Notes under the pieces: model-generated
What the model was told of the DNA's origin: nothing
Database searches by the model: none
The model's input: the letters and a program-made list of their open reading frames with translations, nothing else
Program-made: the position numbers and the translations under genes
Shown here: positions 600 to 53,745 of the stretch, piece by piece
Layout of the letters: each line of letters opens with the position of its first letter
How positions within the stretch are numbered: position 1 is the stretch's first letter
Assembly (NCBI GenBank): GCA_965116925.1
Contig: OZ220744.1
Location: 4,928,001-4,992,000, forward strand
DNA length: 64,000 nucleotides
Direction: 5' to 3'
Source of the DNA: Candidatus Poribacteria bacterium
GTDB lineage: Bacteria; Poribacteria; WGA-4E; PCPOR2b

Positions 600-1970
600 A
601 TGGTACAACATAATAATGATAGCACACCTATCCACATCGGCACAGATCGCCAACTATTTGTGGATGATTTCTGGATTGACGAAGCGCAAGATGTCACGCG
701 GCATTTGCATGAGCCGGTGCGTCGTGAGGCTGTAATTTCCGCAGAACACCCCTGGGAACGCGGCGGTGTTTCCTACATGGTGACGTTCCGCGAGGGCGAT
801 CGCTTCCGTGCGTGGTATCGCTGCGATCAGGAGATGCCAGTTCGTGGTGAGCGGCTGCCGCTCTACGCTTATGCTGAAAGCACCGACGGAATTCATTGGG
901 AGAAACCACCACTCGGACTGATTGAGTTTCAAGATTCAAAGGACAACAACCTCGTCTGGATGGGACCGGGCAACAACATGTCGCCGTTCCTGGATCTCAA
1001 TCCCGGCGCATCGGACGAAGAACGGTACAAAGCCATCGTCCGTACTAGTGATGTGCTGGCGTTGGTATCGCCTGATGGGCTCCGTTGGCGATTGATGCAG
1101 GACGAACCAATCTTGACTGAACGCCCCTTTGATTCGCACAACATCGCCTTTTGGGACGCGGAACGGAGCGAATATGTCGCTTATACGCGGGGTGTGGCAG
1201 GTCGGGGCAGCTTCAAGAATGGGGTGCGCTGGATTCGACGCTCGACCTCCAAAGACTTTCGCCGTTGGACACCGCTCGAACTGATTGACACCGGCGATAC
1301 CCCCTTTGAGCATCTCTACACCAACGCCTGTGTCCCCTACGAGCGTGCGCCGGGGATGTACCTGATGTTTCCTGCGCGTTTTGTGCCGGAGCGCGAGCCC
1401 ATTCCAGATTGGGAATACGGTTCGGGCGTGAATGACATCGTGTTTATGTCCAGCCGCGATGGAATTCACTTCGATCGCAGCTTCATGGAGGCTTTTGTCC
1501 GTCCCGGACTCGATGAAGGCAACTGGCATGAGCGCGGGATTTACATGGAGCGGGGCATTTTGCAAACATCGCCCGAAGAACTCTCAATGTACAGTATGGC
1601 AAACTGGCGGCTGCCGAGTGTCCATATTCGTCGATTCTCGCTCCGAACTGATGGGTTCGTGTCGGTTCGTGCAGGTTACGCCGGTGGTGAGTTTGTCACC
1701 CAACCATTGATTTTCGCGGGTAACAGCCTGAGATTGAACTTTTCGACATCGGCGGTGGGAGCTGTGCGGGTTGAGATCCAGGATACAGAAGGGCATCCGC
1801 AGCCGGGCTTTACGCTAGATGATTGTTCTGAGATATTCGGTGACAAGATTGATGGTGGTGTTGAGTGGGATGGTGGGGGAGATCTGCGCTCGTTGGCTGG
1901 GCAACCGGTGCGGTTGCGTTTTGTCTTCAAGGACGCAGATCTGTTTGCATTTCGGTTTCAGGAGCGTTAA
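600..1970 (+). CDS. Putative five-bladed beta-propeller glycoside hydrolase-like protein
   Basis: 456 aa with several Asp-box-like motifs (AESTDGIHW, SPDGLRW, SKDFRRW, SRDGIHF) and C-terminal RxDGFVS...VRLRF...ADLFAFRF; SD GAGGGG. Substrate unknown. Confidence 0.6.
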   Translation: MVQHNNDSTPIHIGTDRQLFVDDFWIDEAQDVTRHLHEPVRREAVISAEHPWERGGVSYMVTFREGDRFRAWYRCDQEMPVRGERLPLYAYAESTDGIHWEKPPLGLIEFQDSKDNNLVWMGPGNNMSPFLDLNPGASDEERYKAIVRTSDVLALVSPDGLRWRLMQDEPILTERPFDSHNIAFWDAERSEYVAYTRGVAGRGSFKNGVRWIRRSTSKDFRRWTPLELIDTGDTPFEHLYTNACVPYERAPGMYLMFPARFVPEREPIPDWEYGSGVNDIVFMSSRDGIHFDRSFMEAFVRPGLDEGNWHERGIYMERGILQTSPEELSMYSMANWRLPSVHIRRFSLRTDGFVSVRAGYAGGEFVTQPLIFAGNSLRLNFSTSAVGAVRVEIQDTEGHPQPGFTLDDCSEIFGDKIDGGVEWDGGGDLRSLAGQPVRLRFVFKDADLFAFRFQER

Positions 1971-2171: not shown

Positions 2172-3308
2172 ATGAAAACTTACAAGTTCAAGTTGTATAG
2201 CAATCACGGCAATCGCGAATTGCATAAGACGATAGATGGTCATGCTCACGTCTGGAATCACTGCGTTGCCCTTCAGCGTCGTTACTATGCAATCTATGGC
2301 AAATATATCAGCAAGTTTAGGTTAATCAATCATATATCCAAACTGAAACGATTACCTCGTTTTTCCCATTGGAATCAGCTGCCAAGCCAATCGATACAGG
2401 ACGTGGCTTCCCGTATTGACAAAGGGTATAAGGCAATGTTTGAAGCGCGTGTGCAAGGCAAAGCATGGGGTCGTCCCCGTTTCAAGCCCCGTCGTAAGTA
2501 CAAATCATTCACCTTACTTCAAGCCGGTTGGAAGTTACTGCCGGGCAATCGTATTAGAATTGGTAAACGTATCTATCAGTATTTCAAGTCCCGTGATGTG
2601 TTTGGTAGTCCAAAACGTTGCACCATTAAACGGGACACCGTAGGTGATGTCTATATCACGATTCTAACGGACTATGATGAACCAGACCTCAATCGAGTCA
2701 TGACGGGTAAAATCGCAGGCTTCGACTTCGGTCTGAAGCGGTATCTCACCGGTCATAACGGACACGATATAGAATCGCCACAGTTTTTCAAACGAAGCAT
2801 CAACGTTATCAAACGTGCCAATCGTAACCATTCACGGAAAAAGAAGCAGTCAAATAACCGTGAACGTGCACGGCTTGATTTAGCCCGACAACACCGTAAG
2901 ATTGAGCGCCAACGGGAGGATTTCCACTGGAAGTTGGCACACCAACTGACCGATGAATACGACGAAATCCGTCTTGAAGACTTGAACCTTAAAGGCATGA
3001 AAGCCCTATGGGGCCGCAAAGTCAGTGACTTAGGATTTGCCGATTTCGTCAAGAAATTGGTGTATATCGCCAAGAAAAAAGGTGTCAAAATCATCTGCAT
3101 TGATAAGTGGTATCCCTCCAGTAAAACTTGCTCGGTTTGTGGTGTGGTCAATGAAACGTTGAATCTGCGTGATAGAAACTGGCAGTGTAGCGATTGTGGC
3201 ATGCGGCATGACCGAGACCGCAACGCTGCGATTAACATCTACCGGGTTGGGGCATCAACCCTCGAAGGAGAGGACGTAAGACTATCTTCGGATAGCTGTC
3301 CTTGTTGA
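2172..3308 (+). CDS. tnpB: RNA-guided endonuclease TnpB
   Basis: 378 aa; N-terminal KTYKFKLY, RuvC-I GFDFG, RuvC-II LEDL, Zn finger CSVC/CSDC, RuvC-III DRDRNAA; D-E-D triad intact. Confidence 0.95.
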   Translation: MKTYKFKLYSNHGNRELHKTIDGHAHVWNHCVALQRRYYAIYGKYISKFRLINHISKLKRLPRFSHWNQLPSQSIQDVASRIDKGYKAMFEARVQGKAWGRPRFKPRRKYKSFTLLQAGWKLLPGNRIRIGKRIYQYFKSRDVFGSPKRCTIKRDTVGDVYITILTDYDEPDLNRVMTGKIAGFDFGLKRYLTGHNGHDIESPQFFKRSINVIKRANRNHSRKKKQSNNRERARLDLARQHRKIERQREDFHWKLAHQLTDEYDEIRLEDLNLKGMKALWGRKVSDLGFADFVKKLVYIAKKKGVKIICIDKWYPSSKTCSVCGVVNETLNLRDRNWQCSDCGMRHDRDRNAAINIYRVGASTLEGEDVRLSSDSCPC

Positions 3309-3430
3309 TAGCGCAATTCGACTCCTATTGGCACGGGGCGCGCTCCGATTCTCGGAGTCCCGATAAATCGGGATAAGAATCCCAATCCTTTAGGTTTGGG
3401 AGTATGTCAATGAAGGTTGCGTTTCGCCTG
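3246..3430 (+). ncRNA. TnpB omegaRNA/reRNA (scaffold plus flank-derived guide)
   Basis: Established TnpB biology: the RNA overlaps the tnpB 3' end and right end, with the guide from the flank after TCAA (3411: TGAAGGTTGCGTTTCGCC). 5' boundary estimated. Confidence 0.7.
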
Positions 3431-3929: not shown

Positions 3930-5876
3930 GTTTCAATTCCACACTGGTTCGATTAAAAGCCGCATCTGTCACCGCAGACGCAGACAGGATTTGTGCGTTT
4001 CAATTCCACACTGGTTCGATTAAAAGTAGAAACCCGTCCGTCACCACCGATCGTGATAGTGACATGTTTCAATTCCACACTGGTTCGATTAAAAGCATAC
4101 GCCACCAGTGCGGTATACCCTGTTTCGAGCGGGTTTCAATTCCACACTGGTTCGATTAAAAGTCAGGAATCGCAGCTTGCGCTCCCCTTCGACCTGGAGG
4201 ATCTGGGTTTCAATTCCACACTGATTCGCGACCACGGCGTGATAGACTGATTCGGTTTCAATTCCACACTGGTTCGATTAAAAGTGTCCACCAAAGATAA
4301 ACACATTTAACGTCATTCAATGTTTCAATTCCACACTGGTTCGATTAAAAGCAACGAATCGTTGGAGGGCGGTGTCGAGGCTTTCAGGTTTCAATTCCAC
4401 ACTGGTTCGATTAAAAGGCATCCACGACGATCTTGCACAAGCCATCAACAAGAGTTTCAATTCCACACTGGTTCGATTAAAAGGCGACGAGATACGACGG
4501 GAACACCACATAGAAAGATAGTTTCAATTCCACACTGGTTCGATTAAAAGTATATCCGAGAGACGTAGGCATCAGCGCAACGCCACTGTTTCAATTCCAC
4601 ACTGGTTCGATTAAAAGTCATTGCGCCCCATAATATGTATCCTGTTATAATAAGTTTCAATTCCACACTGGTTCGATTAAAAGTACCATCGGAACATTGT
4701 AGTCACGGCAGAGTGTCTGGTTTCAATTCCACACTGGTTCGATTAAAAGCATAGGTTGTTGATGTTGACCACACACGAACATAATGTTTCAATTCCACAC
4801 TGGTTCGATTAAAAGTTGAAGTCGCAGACGGCATTGCTGTCCACATTCCGTGTTTCAATTCCACACTGGTTCGATTAAAAGTGAGAGTTTTCCCGTTTGG
4901 TAGGGTTTCGGTCAAGGTTTCAATTCCACACTGGTTCGATTAAAAGCTGGAAGTGGTGTGACTCAAGCGGTGAATGAGATTCGTTTCAATTCCACACTGG
5001 TTCGATTAAAAGACGGGTTGGGGGTTTAACTGTCTTTGATTGTCCAGAGTTTCAATTCCACACTGGTTCGATTAAAAGAAAGTTCACATTCCCAAAGAGG
5101 TTGTTCATCATCTTAGTTTCAATTCCACACTGGTTCGATTAAAAGTCAGCCTCAACACCGAGATAATCCAGCAATTCATCGTTTCAATTCCACACTGGTT
5201 CGATTAAAAGTGGGAAAGAAGTTGTCGGTCAGTTGCGATTTGTCAAGTTTCAATTCCACACTGGTTCGATTAAAAGCAGCGTTTCATGCGCCATTGTCCA
5301 CTGGCTCGCTCAGTTTCAATTCCACACTGGTTCGATTAAAAGCCATCTACCATCTCTTGATAGTGAGACAAATCCTGAGTTTCAATTCCACACTGGTTCG
5401 ATTAAAAGCGACGCATAGAGATTCTTGTTATCCCGATGTTGACCGAGTTTCAATTCCACACTGGTTCGATTAAAAGTCAAACGATTGGAAACTGATTATA
5501 AGGATGAGAAAATGTTTCAATTCCACACTGGTTCGATTAAAAGTGTGTGTGGGGGATAATAACAGCTATGGCTTCCAGAGTTTCAATTCCACACTGGTTC
5601 GATTAAAAGTCAACTGTTTTTTTTTTGGCGTTGATTTGCGTTCTAGTTTCAATTCCACACTGGTTCGATTAAAAGTTGCGTGTTCTTTCCACAGTGACAC
5701 GATCTTATTGTGTTTCAATTCCACACTGGTTCGATTAAAAGCCAAACAGCGAATTATACTATCGTTGCAGGCGACAGTTTCAATTCCACACTGGTTCGAT
5801 TAAAAGTCGAATCAACCAACGCTTATTCGGTGTCGAGCTCATCACCGTTTCAATTCCACACTGGTTCGATTAAAAG
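3930..5876 (-). CRISPR. Type I-B CRISPR array, leader-distal segment (30 repeats, one truncated)
   Basis: Plus-strand repeat GTTTCAATTCCACACTGGTTCGATTAAAAG (30 bp), spacers mostly 35-40 bp; minus strand ends ATTGAAAC, the Cas6-type 5' handle. Confidence 0.98.
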
Positions 5877-50616: not shown

Positions 50617-51972
50617 TTATTTAATATCTTCGATTAAAAAGTTAATTGTTTGATAAAGCTCTGCATCCGTTCGGATACTCTCTTCAATTCGGTTGTTAGC
50701 GTGCAAAATGGTCGTGTGATCTTGCCGGCCGAAAGCATCTGCAATTTCCATTAGGGACAGGTTGGTTAGTTGACGGCAAAGATACATGGCAATTTGTCGG
50801 GGCACAACAACCGCTTTTGTGCGTGTAGAGGACTTGAGGTCGCTGATTTTTAGACGAAAATAGCCCGCTACGGCTTTTTGAATATCTTCTGCTGTGATAG
50901 CTTTAGAGTTAATCCGAGGCGGCGGTGTAGCGAAGTCGTTTAACACATTACGGGCAAAATTGACTGTCAATTCCTCATTGAAAAGACTTGCTTCTGCAGC
51001 GACCCGGATGAGCGATCCCTCTAGATCCCGAATGTTCGTTTGGATCACTTCGGCAATATAGCTTAAAACAGAGTCGGGAACATTTTCCAAGTTTTGGTCT
51101 TCACATTTCTGGCGAAGGATAGCAATCCTTGTTTCAAATTGGGGTGGACTAATGTCTGCAACCATTCCCCACTCAAAACGAGAGCGTAATCGCTCTTCGA
51201 CGGTTTCAAGGTTTTTCGGTGGTCGGTCGCTTGTCATCACAATATGGTTTGAATTTTGGTGAAGCTCATTAAAAGTATGGAAAAATTCTTCTTGGGTGCC
51301 CTCCTTACGTTGTAAAAATTGAATATCATCAATAAGAAGCACATCAACTGTCCGATATTTGCTTCGGAAATCGAATGCGGTGGTACGAGTGATGATAGAG
51401 TCAATATATTCATTCATAAAGGTCTCAGACGAGATATAGAGCACTTTCTGCTTGGAATGAACCTCTTGGATTCGGTTGCCGATTGCGTGCAGCAGGTGAG
51501 TCTTACCCAATCCAACACCACCATAGATGAAAAGTGGGTTGTAAATCTTGCCTGGGTTTTCTGATACAGCCAGTGAAGCCGCATGACTCAAGCGATTCCC
51601 AGTTCCTACAACGAACCGATCGAAACTATATTCGGGGTTAAGGGTTGTATCAGTTGATGGGGCATCAGTATCATCAGGTGCAGTAGCAGGGGTAGATGAG
51701 ACCGCAGGTTCAGGTTGCCTTTTTCCGTCGGGCTGTGCAGCAATGATTTTGAGCCGACAGCTGGCACCAATCTGTTTCTCTAAGAGACCGTTGATATCAG
51801 GAAGAAAACGGCTTGCAATTTGCTCCTGTGTATACACACTCGGAACTGAAACTGTCAGTTCACTTTCTGTGAGAGCCATCGGTTTAGCTTGGCGTAGATA
51901 AACATCTTCACGGATGGTGTCGCCCAACTCAGACAGAATTTTCAACCAGATTTGGTCCGGGGTATACTGCAT
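50617..51972 (-). CDS. dnaA: Replication initiator DnaA
   Basis: YNPLFIYGGVGLGKTHL, DDIQF, QEEFFHTFN, RQIAMYL, DHTT. Confidence 0.99.
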   Translation of the reverse strand: MQYTPDQIWLKILSELGDTIREDVYLRQAKPMALTESELTVSVPSVYTQEQIASRFLPDINGLLEKQIGASCRLKIIAAQPDGKRQPEPAVSSTPATAPDDTDAPSTDTTLNPEYSFDRFVVGTGNRLSHAASLAVSENPGKIYNPLFIYGGVGLGKTHLLHAIGNRIQEVHSKQKVLYISSETFMNEYIDSIITRTTAFDFRSKYRTVDVLLIDDIQFLQRKEGTQEEFFHTFNELHQNSNHIVMTSDRPPKNLETVEERLRSRFEWGMVADISPPQFETRIAILRQKCEDQNLENVPDSVLSYIAEVIQTNIRDLEGSLIRVAAEASLFNEELTVNFARNVLNDFATPPPRINSKAITAEDIQKAVAGYFRLKISDLKSSTRTKAVVVPRQIAMYLCRQLTNLSLMEIADAFGRQDHTTILHANNRIEESIRTDAELYQTINFLIEDIK

Positions 51973-52165
51973 TATATGACATCCTATAATTGGAGGGTTC
52001 CTTCAGGGGAATTCAAGCAATGTAGCAATCAACTATTAATATAAAAAGATTGGGATTCCTGACTGGCTTGCTCGCTAAACAACCGGAAACCGGAATGAGG
52101 AAAAAGATCATTATTACAAAATTGACAATGCACGAAGAACAAAAATTATTTGCTCTAATCACAAG

Positions 52166-52196
52166 TTATCCACAAGTTATCCACAAGTTATCCACA
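52166..52196 (+). promoter_or_regulatory. Three tandem perfect DnaA boxes upstream of dnaA
   Basis: TTATCCACA at 52166, 52177, 52188. Confidence 0.92.
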
Positions 52197-52354
52197 AATT
52201 CTTCACCTATAGAAAGGCGAGGCTTACCGGGGACTGTCAGCCATTATTTGGCGGGGATTAGATTTAGTTTTTGTCCTTAAGTAAATCTACTTTAGTATAT
52301 CATAAAACATGGTGTAAAATCAAGCCAAAATCCGATCGATTGGTGGGAAAAATC

Positions 52355-52384
52355 TTGACAAATCCTAACCTAATAGACTATCAT
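52355..52384 (+). promoter_or_regulatory. sigma70-type promoter for the rpmH leader
   Basis: TTGACA-18 bp-TATCAT. Confidence 0.6.
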
Positions 52385-52458
52385 TCCTGCGCTTAGAGTT
52401 GACTGTTTGAAAAATCAACCTCTGGAACAAAGTATCGGGATTCCTGTTGAGTCCCGTA

Positions 52459-52566
52459 GTTGGGGCGATGGCGTCCCCGATAGGTGTCAGATTTGATTGG
52501 ACCTATGTAAATCTGGCTAACATAGCGGATAAGAATCCCAGTGCTTTAGCTTTGGGAGTACGTCAA
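52459..52566 (+). ncRNA. Orphan IS605 right end / omegaRNA-like scaffold
   Basis: Ends GGATAAGAATCCCAGTGCTTTAGCTTTGGGAGTACGTCAA, matching 3371-3410 at 36/40; begins with the same GTTGGGGC; no tnpB upstream. Confidence 0.7.
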
Positions 52567-52588
52567 AATTAGTTAGGAGAAGGTGCTG

Positions 52589-52723
52589 ATGAAACGTACA
52601 TATCAACCTCACCGTCGTAAACGAAAAAATAAGTTTGGCTTTCGCAAACGGATGTCTACGCGGGATGGCCGGAAGATTCTCTCTCAACGTCGTGCGAGAG
52701 GTCGAAAAGTCCTCACCGCTTAA
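52589..52723 (+). CDS. rpmH: 50S ribosomal protein L34
   Basis: Not in ORF track (44 aa): [51 protein letters not shown]. Confidence 0.98.
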
Positions 52724-52737
52724 CAGGATATACACCA

Positions 52738-53745
52738 ATGGTGTTGCCCCTCGGAAAACTCAAGATTGATCTGTTGGAGCAGCTTTTACCTCAACCAGAT
52801 CGGGATACTCGCGTCGTTGTTGGACCGAAAGTTGGGGAGGATGCTGCTGTAATAGACTTCGGCGAATCGTATCTGGTTGCTAAGACGGATCCGATTACCT
52901 TTGCAACCGATGAGATTGGCTGGTATCTTATCTGCGTCAACAGCAACGATATCGCAACGATGGGGGCAGTTCCAAAATGGCTGCTGACGACGATTCTTCT
53001 ACCGGAAAACCGGACAACTGAAGCGTCGGTACGCCGTATCATGGAACAGATCAACACCGCATGTAATCATTTTGACATTACCCTGTGCGGTGGACATACT
53101 GAAATTACTTACGGCTTAGATCGACCTATTGTCATTGGGCAAATGCTCGGTGAAGTCACCAAGGACAAGCTAATCGTATCATCGGGGGCGCAGGCGGGGG
53201 ATGATCTAATATTGACGAAAGGACTTGGCATTGAAGCCACGTCAATCATCGCCCGCGAGTGTGAAGCCGATCTATTGGCGAAGTTTTCTCCCGCTTTTCT
53301 TAATCGAGCAAAGGGGTATTTGACCTCACCGGGAATTTCGGTGCTGGAGGAGGCACTGATCGCTGTTGAAACGGGCGGTGTCCATGCAATGCACGATCCA
53401 ACGGAAGGCGGCGTTGCGACAGCCATCCACGAGCTGGCACATGCTGCGAACTTGGGAGTAGTTGTCTGGCAGGATGTGCTACTCATATCGGATGACACAG
53501 CGCAACTTTGTCGTGAATTGGATCTGAATCCGCTAGGAGTTATCTCCTCTGGTGCGTTGCTGATTGCGGCGGACCCCACAGCAAGCAACCAGATTGTGTC
53601 AGCGATTACTGAACGCAATATTCCTTGTGAGGTTATCGGTCAGTTGTTGCCACCGGAGAGCGGTTGCTGGATTGAGACGGATGGCCAACGCTGTCCACTC
53701 CCTATTTTTGAGACAGACGAGATTACCAAGATCTTTGGTGAATGA
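52738..53745 (+). CDS. AIR synthase-related (HypE/PurM superfamily) protein
   Basis: GEDAAV, KTDPIT, NDIATMG, GGHTE, MHDPTEGG. Confidence 0.88.
   Translation: MVLPLGKLKIDLLEQLLPQPDRDTRVVVGPKVGEDAAVIDFGESYLVAKTDPITFATDEIGWYLICVNSNDIATMGAVPKWLLTTILLPENRTTEASVRRIMEQINTACNHFDITLCGGHTEITYGLDRPIVIGQMLGEVTKDKLIVSSGAQAGDDLILTKGLGIEATSIIARECEADLLAKFSPAFLNRAKGYLTSPGISVLEEALIAVETGGVHAMHDPTEGGVATAIHELAHAANLGVVVWQDVLLISDDTAQLCRELDLNPLGVISSGALLIAADPTASNQIVSAITERNIPCEVIGQLLPPESGCWIETDGQRCPLPIFETDEITKIFGE

What the first reader, a model, noticed from the sequence alone, without database searches (positions are those of the whole stretch)
52355..52590. Stand-alone TnpB omegaRNA-like scaffold as the rpmH leader beside the origin
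Seen: 52527-52566 matches the tnpB element's right end at 36/40 nt, with a compensatory stem change (CC-TTTA-GG to GC-TTTA-GC) and intact TCAA terminus. GTTGGGGC to TCAA spans 108 nt here versus 107 nt in the tnpB copy once its 58-nt insert is removed. There is no tnpB ORF or left end; a TTGACA/TATCAT promoter and further hairpins precede it, with a possible pseudoknot (ATAGGT/ACCTAT crossed by CAGATTT/AAATCTG). The guide position (52567: AATTAGTTAGGAGAAGGTGC) is the rpmH SD region. Established: TnpB binds and processes omegaRNA and can use it in trans; TnpB derivatives have been domesticated. Inference: either a trans guide expressed from a housekeeping promoter, or a cis element through which TnpB binding or processing removes the rpmH RBS, linking a transposon nuclease to ribosomal-protein expression. 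The middle of the scaffold is quite diverged, so simple decay remains possible.
Basis: partly seen in the sequence, partly recalled or inferred. Interest (0 to 1): 0.8.

Follow-up and report, generated by a model that had tools for sequence, protein, structure and literature searches.

The report
Jumping-gene leftover in ribosomal gene leader
A jumping gene recently landed in front of this bacterium's ribosomal protein L34 gene and was then mostly deleted, leaving its guide-RNA tail in the message; it is most likely a tolerated scar in one strain, though the tail looks complete enough that it may still steer a related nuclease against uninterrupted copies of the site.

Summary
Window 52413-52566 is 149/155 identical to the 3' end of a second tnpB family (383 aa, rearranged RuvC-II) that has two intact-ORF copies elsewhere in this genome. 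Relatives give the empty site, TTAA^AATTAG; TTAA is one of this family's two main target motifs (14 of 32 left ends). An ordinary IS1341-type element landed in the rpmH leader and lost its left end and gene at a 3-base microhomology. None of 17 genus relatives has it, 3 carry other repeats there, and a 99.5%-identical strain has the empty site. The 'compensatory' change is a family trait, and the proposed pseudoknot is unsupported. Domestication is unlikely. What survives: the scaffold looks complete (183 bits, intact copies 188-192), sits under the native rpmH promoter, a TTAA-type cognate TnpB is encoded, and the guide matches empty alleles, so an immobile homing allele is possible and untested. 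This scan noted similar orphan right ends in other genomes.

The parts
52355..52384 (+). Native rpmH promoter, TTGACA-18-TATCAT; not part of the element
   Evidence: same motif in relatives lacking the insert; transcription start near 52391 is inferred
52391..52415 (+). Native first part of the rpmH leader, ending GAAAAAT (the T is the first base of the original TTAA target)
   Evidence: alignment by eye with empty alleles
52413..52415 (+). AAT microhomology shared by the host leader and the tnpB codons after RuvC-III; left junction of the remnant
52413..52566 (+). 154-nt 3' remnant of a family-B IS1341-type element: last tnpB codons, omegaRNA scaffold and right end; no left end
   Evidence: 149/155 to G000:C1:2808643-2808797(-) and 3785406-3785560(+); tblastn to family-B residues 349-377; 183 bits with model R1 (the query was in its training set)
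52429..52436 (+). AAAGTATC motif just before the first helix, kept at or near the 5' edge of several gene-less family-B derivatives; probable start of the working scaffold (inferred)
52436..52456 (+). Scaffold helix 1 (CGGGATT/AGTCCCG)
   Evidence: 97.9% of cells paired, no two-sided change
52462..52478 (+). Scaffold helix 2 (GGGG/CCCC); its loop TGGCGT (52469-52474) can pair with ACGTCA (52560-52565), the likely TnpB-type terminal pseudoknot
   Evidence: 100% paired but 5 of 6 pairs never vary, so no covariation proof; position like the ISDra2 pseudoknot in PMC10097598 (passages)
52480..52506 (+). Scaffold helix 3 (ATAGGTG/CACCTAT in the family); this copy has lost one C between 52500 and 52501, a change seen in 0 of 41 other copies
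52511..52530 (+).
52536..52566 (+). Right-end subterminal hairpin and TCAA terminus; A-to-G at 52541 (A-U becomes G-U) is seen in 0 of 41 other copies
52567..52586 (+). Host flank and predicted guide; holds the rpmH Shine-Dalgarno AGGAG at 52575-52579 (guide positions 9-13)
52589..52723 (+). rpmH, ribosomal protein L34, single copy in the genome
   Evidence: TIGR01030 above cut-off; one tblastn hit
2172..3410 (+).
   Evidence: 41 bits with the family-B model against 183; 23% protein identity to family B
52166..52196 (+). Three TTATCCACA DnaA boxes between dnaA and rpmH; context only
   Evidence: dnaA by TIGR00362

Best explanation
A young, strain-level scar of ordinary transposition. Step 1 (strongly supported): a tnpB-only IS1341-type element of family B, about 1.4 kb, was inserted 3' of TTAA in the A/T-rich rpmH leader, 22 nt before the start codon. 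Step 2 (supported by the junction; the route is inferred): the left end and about 1.25 kb with nearly all of tnpB were lost at an AAT microhomology, taking the last three bases of the target motif with them. Step 3 (inferred): this put the native promoter back within about 200 nt of the single rpmH gene while leaving the ribosome-binding site whole, so the shortened allele was viable or favoured; deletions running past the right end would have taken the binding site. Without a left end it cannot be excised or moved by TnpA (established mechanism). It is very probably transcribed as part of the rpmH message and has begun to drift (2 private changes). Any TnpB binding is a by-product, not a selected control of L34.
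For: Source family identified at 149/155. Empty site TTAA^AATTAG in relatives; TTAA precedes 14 of 32 located family-B left ends. Absent from 17 of 17 genus relatives whose rpmH was found, no full-length model match in 29 relatives' dnaA loci, junction pattern in 1 of 29 family genomes and in none of the genome-contig collection, own genome possibly excluded. An RNA-library contig with 2 differences in 436 nt of downstream sequence has the empty junction, whereas 8 sister species compared are 90-97% identical there. Three of 17 relatives carry other repeats in the same leader. Other left-end-less 3' fragments of family B have unrelated breakpoints: 194, 437 and 238 nt. In this genome 4 of 8 right-end-only remnants lie within 25 nt of a Shine-Dalgarno and start codon, against 0 of 16 full elements (Fisher p 0.007, groups set by me after seeing the data). 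The folded leader leaves AGGAG unpaired (0.94, against 0.26-0.79 in 10 relatives).
Against: The break fell just 5' of all conserved helices, so the scaffold appears whole and scores almost as intact copies do. Only 2 private changes exist, too few to show decay, and one is a tolerated wobble. A TTAA-type cognate TnpB with an open reading frame is in the genome. The full-length ancestral allele was not found (searches were blank), so step 2 is not observed. The opening energy of the start region is at the top of the relatives' range (10.9 against 7.1-10.8 kcal/mol). Older right-end-like leaders elsewhere in this genome are shared across much of the genus, so such scars can persist.
Confidence: 0.7

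Rival explanations
1. Same origin, but the remnant is a working, immobile stand-alone omegaRNA captured by a strong host promoter. The family-B TnpB at G000:C1:3784363-3785511 loads it from the rpmH message, and the complex cuts any empty allele (TTAA + AATTAGTTAGGAG) that enters the cell, while its own allele (TCAA at that position) is spared. The scar would behave as a homing allele at a ribosomal-protein gene and cost some rpmH message.
For: All conserved helices and the likely terminal pseudoknot are present; gene-less derivatives keep the scaffold from about the same 5' edge. The copy-B TnpB matches the TTAA group at 17 of 19 diagnostic columns and keeps D, alternative E and D motifs; a rearranged TnpB was active in PMC10530073 (passages). 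Empty alleles with TTAA and 13 of 13 seed matches are in 4 of 17 relatives and in a near-identical strain; about 12 bp suffices for ISDra2 TnpB (PMC10097598, passages). No self-target exists in the own genome at 8 or more seed bases. Stand-alone omegaRNAs act in trans (PMC10691335, passages).
Against: No RNA evidence for the filled allele among the pieces listed for two RNA runs (171 pieces not shown). A base is missing from helix 3 at a column invariant in 41 of 41 copies. Family-B activity, its TAM and its expression are untested; the left end of copy B is interrupted by a repeat. The allele is not widespread, as a successful drive might be. In the message the right end can pair with the start of the coding sequence in place of the pseudoknot.
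Confidence: 0.2
2. A domesticated cis element: TnpB binding hides the Shine-Dalgarno (guide positions 9-13) or triggers trimming, and so regulates L34 synthesis for the host's benefit.
For: Geometry only: AGGAG lies within the guide segment that TnpB holds. Nuclease-dead TnpB repressors exist (PMC10705468, search listing and start of abstract). IS605 stem-loops linked to host genes can be conserved (PMC2775950, abstract).
Against: One genome in 29; empty in a near-identical strain; no locus-specific covariation; AmaTnpB did not process 3' flanking RNA; family-B genes are mobile, multi-copy and keep catalytic-type residues.
Confidence: 0.04
3. Different route to the same sequence: the fragment was copied in from the right side only, by abortive repair of a TnpB cut at the empty site or by one-ended transposition, and a full element never persisted here.
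For: A precise right junction with a microhomology left junction fits aborted copying as well as deletion. Left-end-less 3' fragments recur. Right-end-only remnants (8) outnumber left ends without a listed right end (3, one of which fronts another tnpB family) in a rough census.
Against: A guide for this site exists only after a first insertion here, so a full or mini element must have come first; the census is rough and small.
Confidence: 0.12
4. Assembly artefact: a repeat end joined into the rpmH leader by mistake.
For: The genome is assembled from a mixed community (inferred) and holds about 45 right-end copies.
Against: A contig of run X2 covers 52308-52442 with no difference at depth 16.7, like its neighbours (16.5, 20.6); it crosses the left junction by 27-30 letters, just under the tool's 31-letter rule, and X2 may be the source sample. 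The copy has private changes, and the right junction falls exactly on the family's target motif.
Confidence: 0.02

Closest known systems
IS200/IS605-family, IS1341-type (tnpB only) elements with a right-end omegaRNA/reRNA; TnpB with rearranged RuvC-II (RIIr clades; TvTnpB)
   Same: Scaffold overlaps the tnpB 3' end, ends in a subterminal hairpin and TCAA, and takes the host flank as guide; insertion 3' of a T-rich tetranucleotide without duplication; parent protein above the NF040570 cut-off with G in place of the RuvC-II E and a downstream E.
   Different: Gene and left end are gone, so it is immobile; the RIIr sub-clade number was not determined.
Stand-alone omegaRNAs and PATE-like gene-less elements (PMC10691335; PMC10055086)
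   Same: Gene-less scaffold in a genome that encodes a compatible-looking TnpB; a true left-plus-right-end mini copy of the same family lies at G000:C1:520765-520963.
   Different: Those are described as mobilized or as keeping transposon ends; this one has one end, one copy, and borrows a host promoter inside an mRNA leader.
Free-standing and gene-linked IS605 stem-loops in Borrelia plasmids (PMC2775950, abstract)
   Same: IS605 end hairpins left beside host genes after the element decays.
   Different: Those lie at gene 3' ends and are conserved across orthologues; this one lies in a 5' leader, keeps the whole scaffold and is not conserved.
TldR, domesticated nuclease-dead TnpB repressors (PMC10705468, listing and start of abstract; details recalled)
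   Same: A TnpB-type scaffold near host genes.
   Different: No nuclease-dead partner gene, no conservation, and the guide matches only its own empty site.

Membership tests
IS605/IS1341 right-end remnant | Homology to the 3' end of a tnpB element with subterminal hairpin and conserved terminus | tested here: met
   149/155 to two own-genome copies; helices 97-100% paired
IS605/IS1341 right-end remnant | Insertion 3' of the family's target motif, no target duplication | tested here: met
   empty site TTAA^AATTAG; TTAA in 14 of 32 left ends
IS605/IS1341 right-end remnant | Parent encodes TnpB | tested here: met
   NF040570 187-197 bits against cut-off 100
Stand-alone omegaRNA / PATE | No effector or transposase gene | tested here: met
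Stand-alone omegaRNA / PATE | Both ends kept, or evidence of mobilization as a unit | tested here: not met
   no left end; no other copy with this 5' boundary among 40 fetched relatives' copies and 3 own copies
Stand-alone omegaRNA / PATE | Complete scaffold | tested here: inconclusive
   full model span, 183 bits (query in training set), but one deletion at an invariant column and the true 5' processing site is unknown
Stand-alone omegaRNA / PATE | Compatible TnpB in the same genome | tested here: met
   two open 383-aa family-B genes; copy B groups with TTAA elements, (compatibility predicted, not shown)
Stand-alone omegaRNA / PATE | Expressed, bound and active in trans | not testable with these tools
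   contigs of two RNA runs showed no listed piece of the filled allele; the raw-read run laid 0 reads
Domesticated TnpB regulator (TldR-like or cis leader) | Conserved at the orthologous host locus | tested here: not met
   1 of 29 family genomes; 0 of 17 genus relatives
Domesticated TnpB regulator (TldR-like or cis leader) | Non-mobile, nuclease-dead partner | tested here: not met
   family B is multi-copy with varied flanks and keeps D, E and D motifs in most of 22 full-length proteins
Known Rfam leader or riboswitch | Match to a curated family | tested here: not met
   one chance-level hit (E 0.69) outside the element

The most novel reading that the evidence does not exclude
An accidental, immobile homing allele: a deletion fused a complete TnpB guide scaffold to a strong housekeeping promoter, so the rpmH message doubles as a guide RNA for a TTAA-type TnpB encoded 1.2 Mb away. 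The complex would destroy incoming empty alleles from conspecific and sister strains, cannot be excised, and would tax L34 synthesis because the guide seed is the ribosome-binding site. With the older right-end-derived leaders shared across the genus, it would be a snapshot of the first step by which transposon guide RNAs become fixed parts of host mRNA leaders.
Probability: 0.17. Interest if true: 0.65.

Novelty: new member of a known kind. Interest (0 to 1): 0.3.

Why it matters
As a scar it matters little: one-ended IS605 remnants and gene-less omegaRNAs are described, and this scan has met several. Its value is as a clean natural test case. Donor family, target motif, empty allele, junction, promoter and candidate nuclease are all identified, so one plasmid assay can ask whether an mRNA leader can serve as a trans guide and whether TnpB loading blocks a ribosome-binding site lying in the guide seed. 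The tendency of right-end-only remnants to sit just before ribosome-binding sites (4 of 8 here) offers a plain explanation for why such orphans keep turning up in leaders.

Tried and rejected
Rfam scan of 51900-52800: nothing relevant. Family-A TnpB (2172-3308) as cognate: rejected. Compensatory change as a sign of selection at this locus: rejected, family trait. Phage target: TTAN plus 13 guide bases gave 49 viral loci (29 distinct contexts), none beyond 16 of 20 guide matches and most of them ordinary ribosome-binding sites; a control guide from another flank gave at least 118, so no targeting evidence. Self-target in the own genome: none. Metagenome scans for the right junction and for the rpmH promoter motif were both blank; the second shows the collection does not serve this lineage, so the blanks say nothing. 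Genome-collection scan for a similar right end before an rpmH-like start: blank, for this end family only. Raw-read run X21 laid 0 reads: no test. The regex census was too noisy and was replaced. GC skew did not locate the origin here. Literature: no paper held both 'Poribacteria' (my guess at the taxon, from no call) and 'TnpB'; none of the 12 papers listed contained 'rpmH'; searches listed no paper on an omegaRNA remnant in an mRNA leader, judged from titles and abstract starts only. PMC12558985 had no passage on orphan copies. The IStron preprint 10.1101/2023.11.20.567912 (passages) only confirmed in-trans use and PATEs. No supplements were read; they may list such cases. No structure prediction, complex prediction or protein homologue search was run.

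Full report
Observation. Rfam has nothing for the region. The genome holds about 45 such right ends, so the question is which element this one came from.

Source. A search of the whole genome showed that 52413-52566 is 149 of 155 columns identical to the 3' ends of two other elements, G000:C1:2808643(-) and 3785560(+), and 87% identical to a gene-less mini copy ending at 520963. These encode a 383-aa TnpB (NF040570 above cut-off) only 23% identical to the window's TnpB. I call it family B. It has G where the RuvC-II glutamate usually stands and a conserved downstream E, in most of 22 full-length proteins, the pattern described for rearranged TnpBs (PMC10691335 and PMC10530073, passages). The remnant starts in the A-I-N codons after the RuvC-III motif. 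A covariance model of family B scores it 183 bits, the two own intact copies 188 and 192, and the window's family-A end 41 (the query was among the 27 training rows, the two own copies were not).

Insertion site. rpmH was found in 17 of 19 other genomes of the genus; all 17 lack the element, and no full-length model match occurs in the dnaA loci of 29 relatives (one weak hairpin-only match in L018 lies about 420 nt upstream of rpmH). A junction pattern was in 1 of 29 family genomes. The closest empty leaders read GAAAAA TTAA AATTAG TTAGGAG. I fetched 40 family-B copies from relatives, picked from the top of the longer list; with 3 own copies, a left end was located by motif in 32 of 43, preceded by TTAA 14 times, TTAC 14, TTAT 2, TTAG 1, GTTA 1. 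The right junction TCAA|AATTAG therefore sits exactly where family B would insert. The left junction shares AAT between host and element and lacks the last three bases of TTAA. The simplest history is a normal insertion followed by loss of about 1.25 kb. All 40 fetched copies continue into tnpB sequence upstream of this boundary; 2 of them, and one more locus fetched later, lack a left side with ample flank in view and break at 194, 437 and 238 nt, so breakpoints vary and this one is not a special trimming point.

Age and spread. Against 41 other copies the remnant has two private changes: a lost C in helix 3 and A-to-G at 52541. In run X5 a contig with 2 differences in 436 nt of downstream sequence begins with the empty junction, while 8 sister species compared are 90-97% identical over that stretch; the insert is thus absent from a very close strain. 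Run X2 holds the left junction with no difference at the depth of its neighbours, by 27-30 letters, and also empty alleles of more distant relatives; it may be the source sample and is not independent support. No listed piece of the two RNA runs showed the filled allele, and the raw-read run gave no test. Three of 17 relatives have other repeats in the same leader, with leaders of 144, 155 and 310 nt against the usual 49-50 and 198 here, so the leader tolerates inserts.

Structure. Six helices are 98.3% paired over 27 rows, with two-sided changes at 4 pairs, and exceed shuffled and slid controls (the tool warns that relatedness inflates this). A better pseudoknot candidate is TGGCGT (52469-52474) with ACGTCA (52560-52565), placed like the ISDra2 pseudoknot (PMC10097598, passages) but nearly invariant and so unproven. 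Several gene-less derivatives among 20 further loci keep the scaffold from about AAAGTATC (52429) onward, which suggests that the remnant holds the whole scaffold (inference).

How it most likely works. Shown: origin, target motif, junctions, restriction to this strain. Inferred: a 1.4-kb element between promoter and rpmH was costly, and a deletion that kept both promoter and ribosome-binding site survived. In this genome 4 of 8 right-end-only remnants lie within 25 nt of a Shine-Dalgarno and start codon, against 0 of 16 full elements and 2 of 21 two-ended short ones (p 0.007 against full elements, and 0.02 for 3 of 7 against 2 of 37 with the query left out; I set the groups, and one of the 8 may be an old two-ended element). 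Folding leaves AGGAG open (0.94 unpaired), with an opening energy at the top of the relatives' range. I put 0.70 on a tolerated scar.

The live alternative. The copy-B TnpB sides with TTAA elements at 17 of 19 diagnostic columns (6 TTAA and 10 TTAC proteins compared). TnpB TAMs match the transposon's insertion motif in PMC10055086 (passages), which also says that PATEs often encode omegaRNAs that need TnpB in trans; PMC10691335 says stand-alone omegaRNAs work in trans. The predicted guide has no target in its own genome, but 4 of 17 relatives carry TTAA with 13 of 13 seed matches. If loaded, the RNA would guard the scar against replacement by an empty allele. Nothing here shows loading or cutting, and the helix-3 deletion may have disabled it: 0.20. 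Viral matches were at or below a control. A domesticated cis regulator gets 0.04: no conservation, and AmaTnpB processed only the 5' side (PMC10278001, passages and section 13). Steric blocking of the binding site by a loaded TnpB remains possible as a side effect.

Comparison and novelty. It works like, or once worked like, an IS605-family omegaRNA. It is a member of the class of one-ended IS605 remnants; it fails the two-ends/mobility feature of stand-alone omegaRNAs and PATEs and the conservation feature of domesticated regulators. Free-standing IS605 hairpins beside host genes are in print (PMC2775950, abstract). Five literature searches listed no case in an rpmH leader, judged from listings; supplements were not read. 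Earlier notes of this scan describe similar orphans in other genomes; none resembles this sequence. Verdict: real, young, explained by known biology, with one cheap and well-defined test left. New member of a known kind; interest 0.30.

Noticed in passing
G000:C1:4595359(-), locus L283 (L093:930-1130); outside the window: A conserved leader of about 450 nt ending in a worn right end (..GAGAATATGTCAA) directly before AGGAGG and a 263-aa gene; the last 200 nt are 88-95% identical in 11 of 20 genus genomes, and several relatives show a left-end-like motif upstream. Part resembles, by eye, the gene-less family-A-like elements. A better candidate for an old, fixed omegaRNA-derived leader than the rpmH case.
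   Followed up: partly
G000:C1:3039328(-), loci L303-L314: Right-end-like hairpin and TCAA 6 nt before GGAGG of a 336-aa gene; present in 8 of 12 aligned genus genomes and replaced by a different stretch in 4.
   Followed up: partly
G000:C1:245422(-), locus L315: Another right-end-only remnant just before a Shine-Dalgarno and a 335-aa gene, not matched in the 18 relatives that hold the gene: a second strain-level case.
   Followed up: partly
L005 (G018), about 802-1085, minus strand: This relative's rpmH leader has two inserts: a common repeat before the Shine-Dalgarno, and a ~128-nt element starting GTCAATAACCCC between the Shine-Dalgarno and ATGAAA. The start and the ATGAA flank recall IscB-type ends (recalled, from no call).
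   Followed up: no
G000:C1:367518, 725294, 3131676, 3178763, 3255352, 4153579, 4386242, 5232946: Eight 50-58-nt mini elements in which left and right end are fused at one shared hairpin, most after TTAA: about the smallest possible PATE.
   Followed up: partly
L031-L070 and G000 copies A and B: Family-B TnpB splits into TTAA and TTAC groups whose differences cluster in the N-terminal 155 residues (19 diagnostic columns, block 99-110), a natural pair for mapping TAM specificity in a rearranged-RuvC TnpB.
   Followed up: partly
L085-L087 (G007, G005): Family-B scaffolds preceded by long structured-looking sequence with no tnpB match in the 550-700 nt fetched; possibly gene-less RNA elements or another cargo.
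   Followed up: no
L071 (G013): A family-B scaffold fused directly behind sequence that reads like a Y1 transposase fragment (HUH-like motif by eye), with tnpB deleted.
   Followed up: no
window 3933-4200 and onward: A CRISPR-like repeat array begins about 520 nt after the family-A tnpB right end.
   Followed up: no
window 52738-53745: rpmH is followed by an AIR-synthase/HypE/ThiL-like gene below all curated cut-offs, where rnpA is usual (recalled).
   Followed up: no
G000:C1:6296312, 701269, 328972, 5955107, 6178252: Five Y1_Tnp (PF01797) matches over the cut-off; which, if any, moves these elements was not determined.
   Followed up: no
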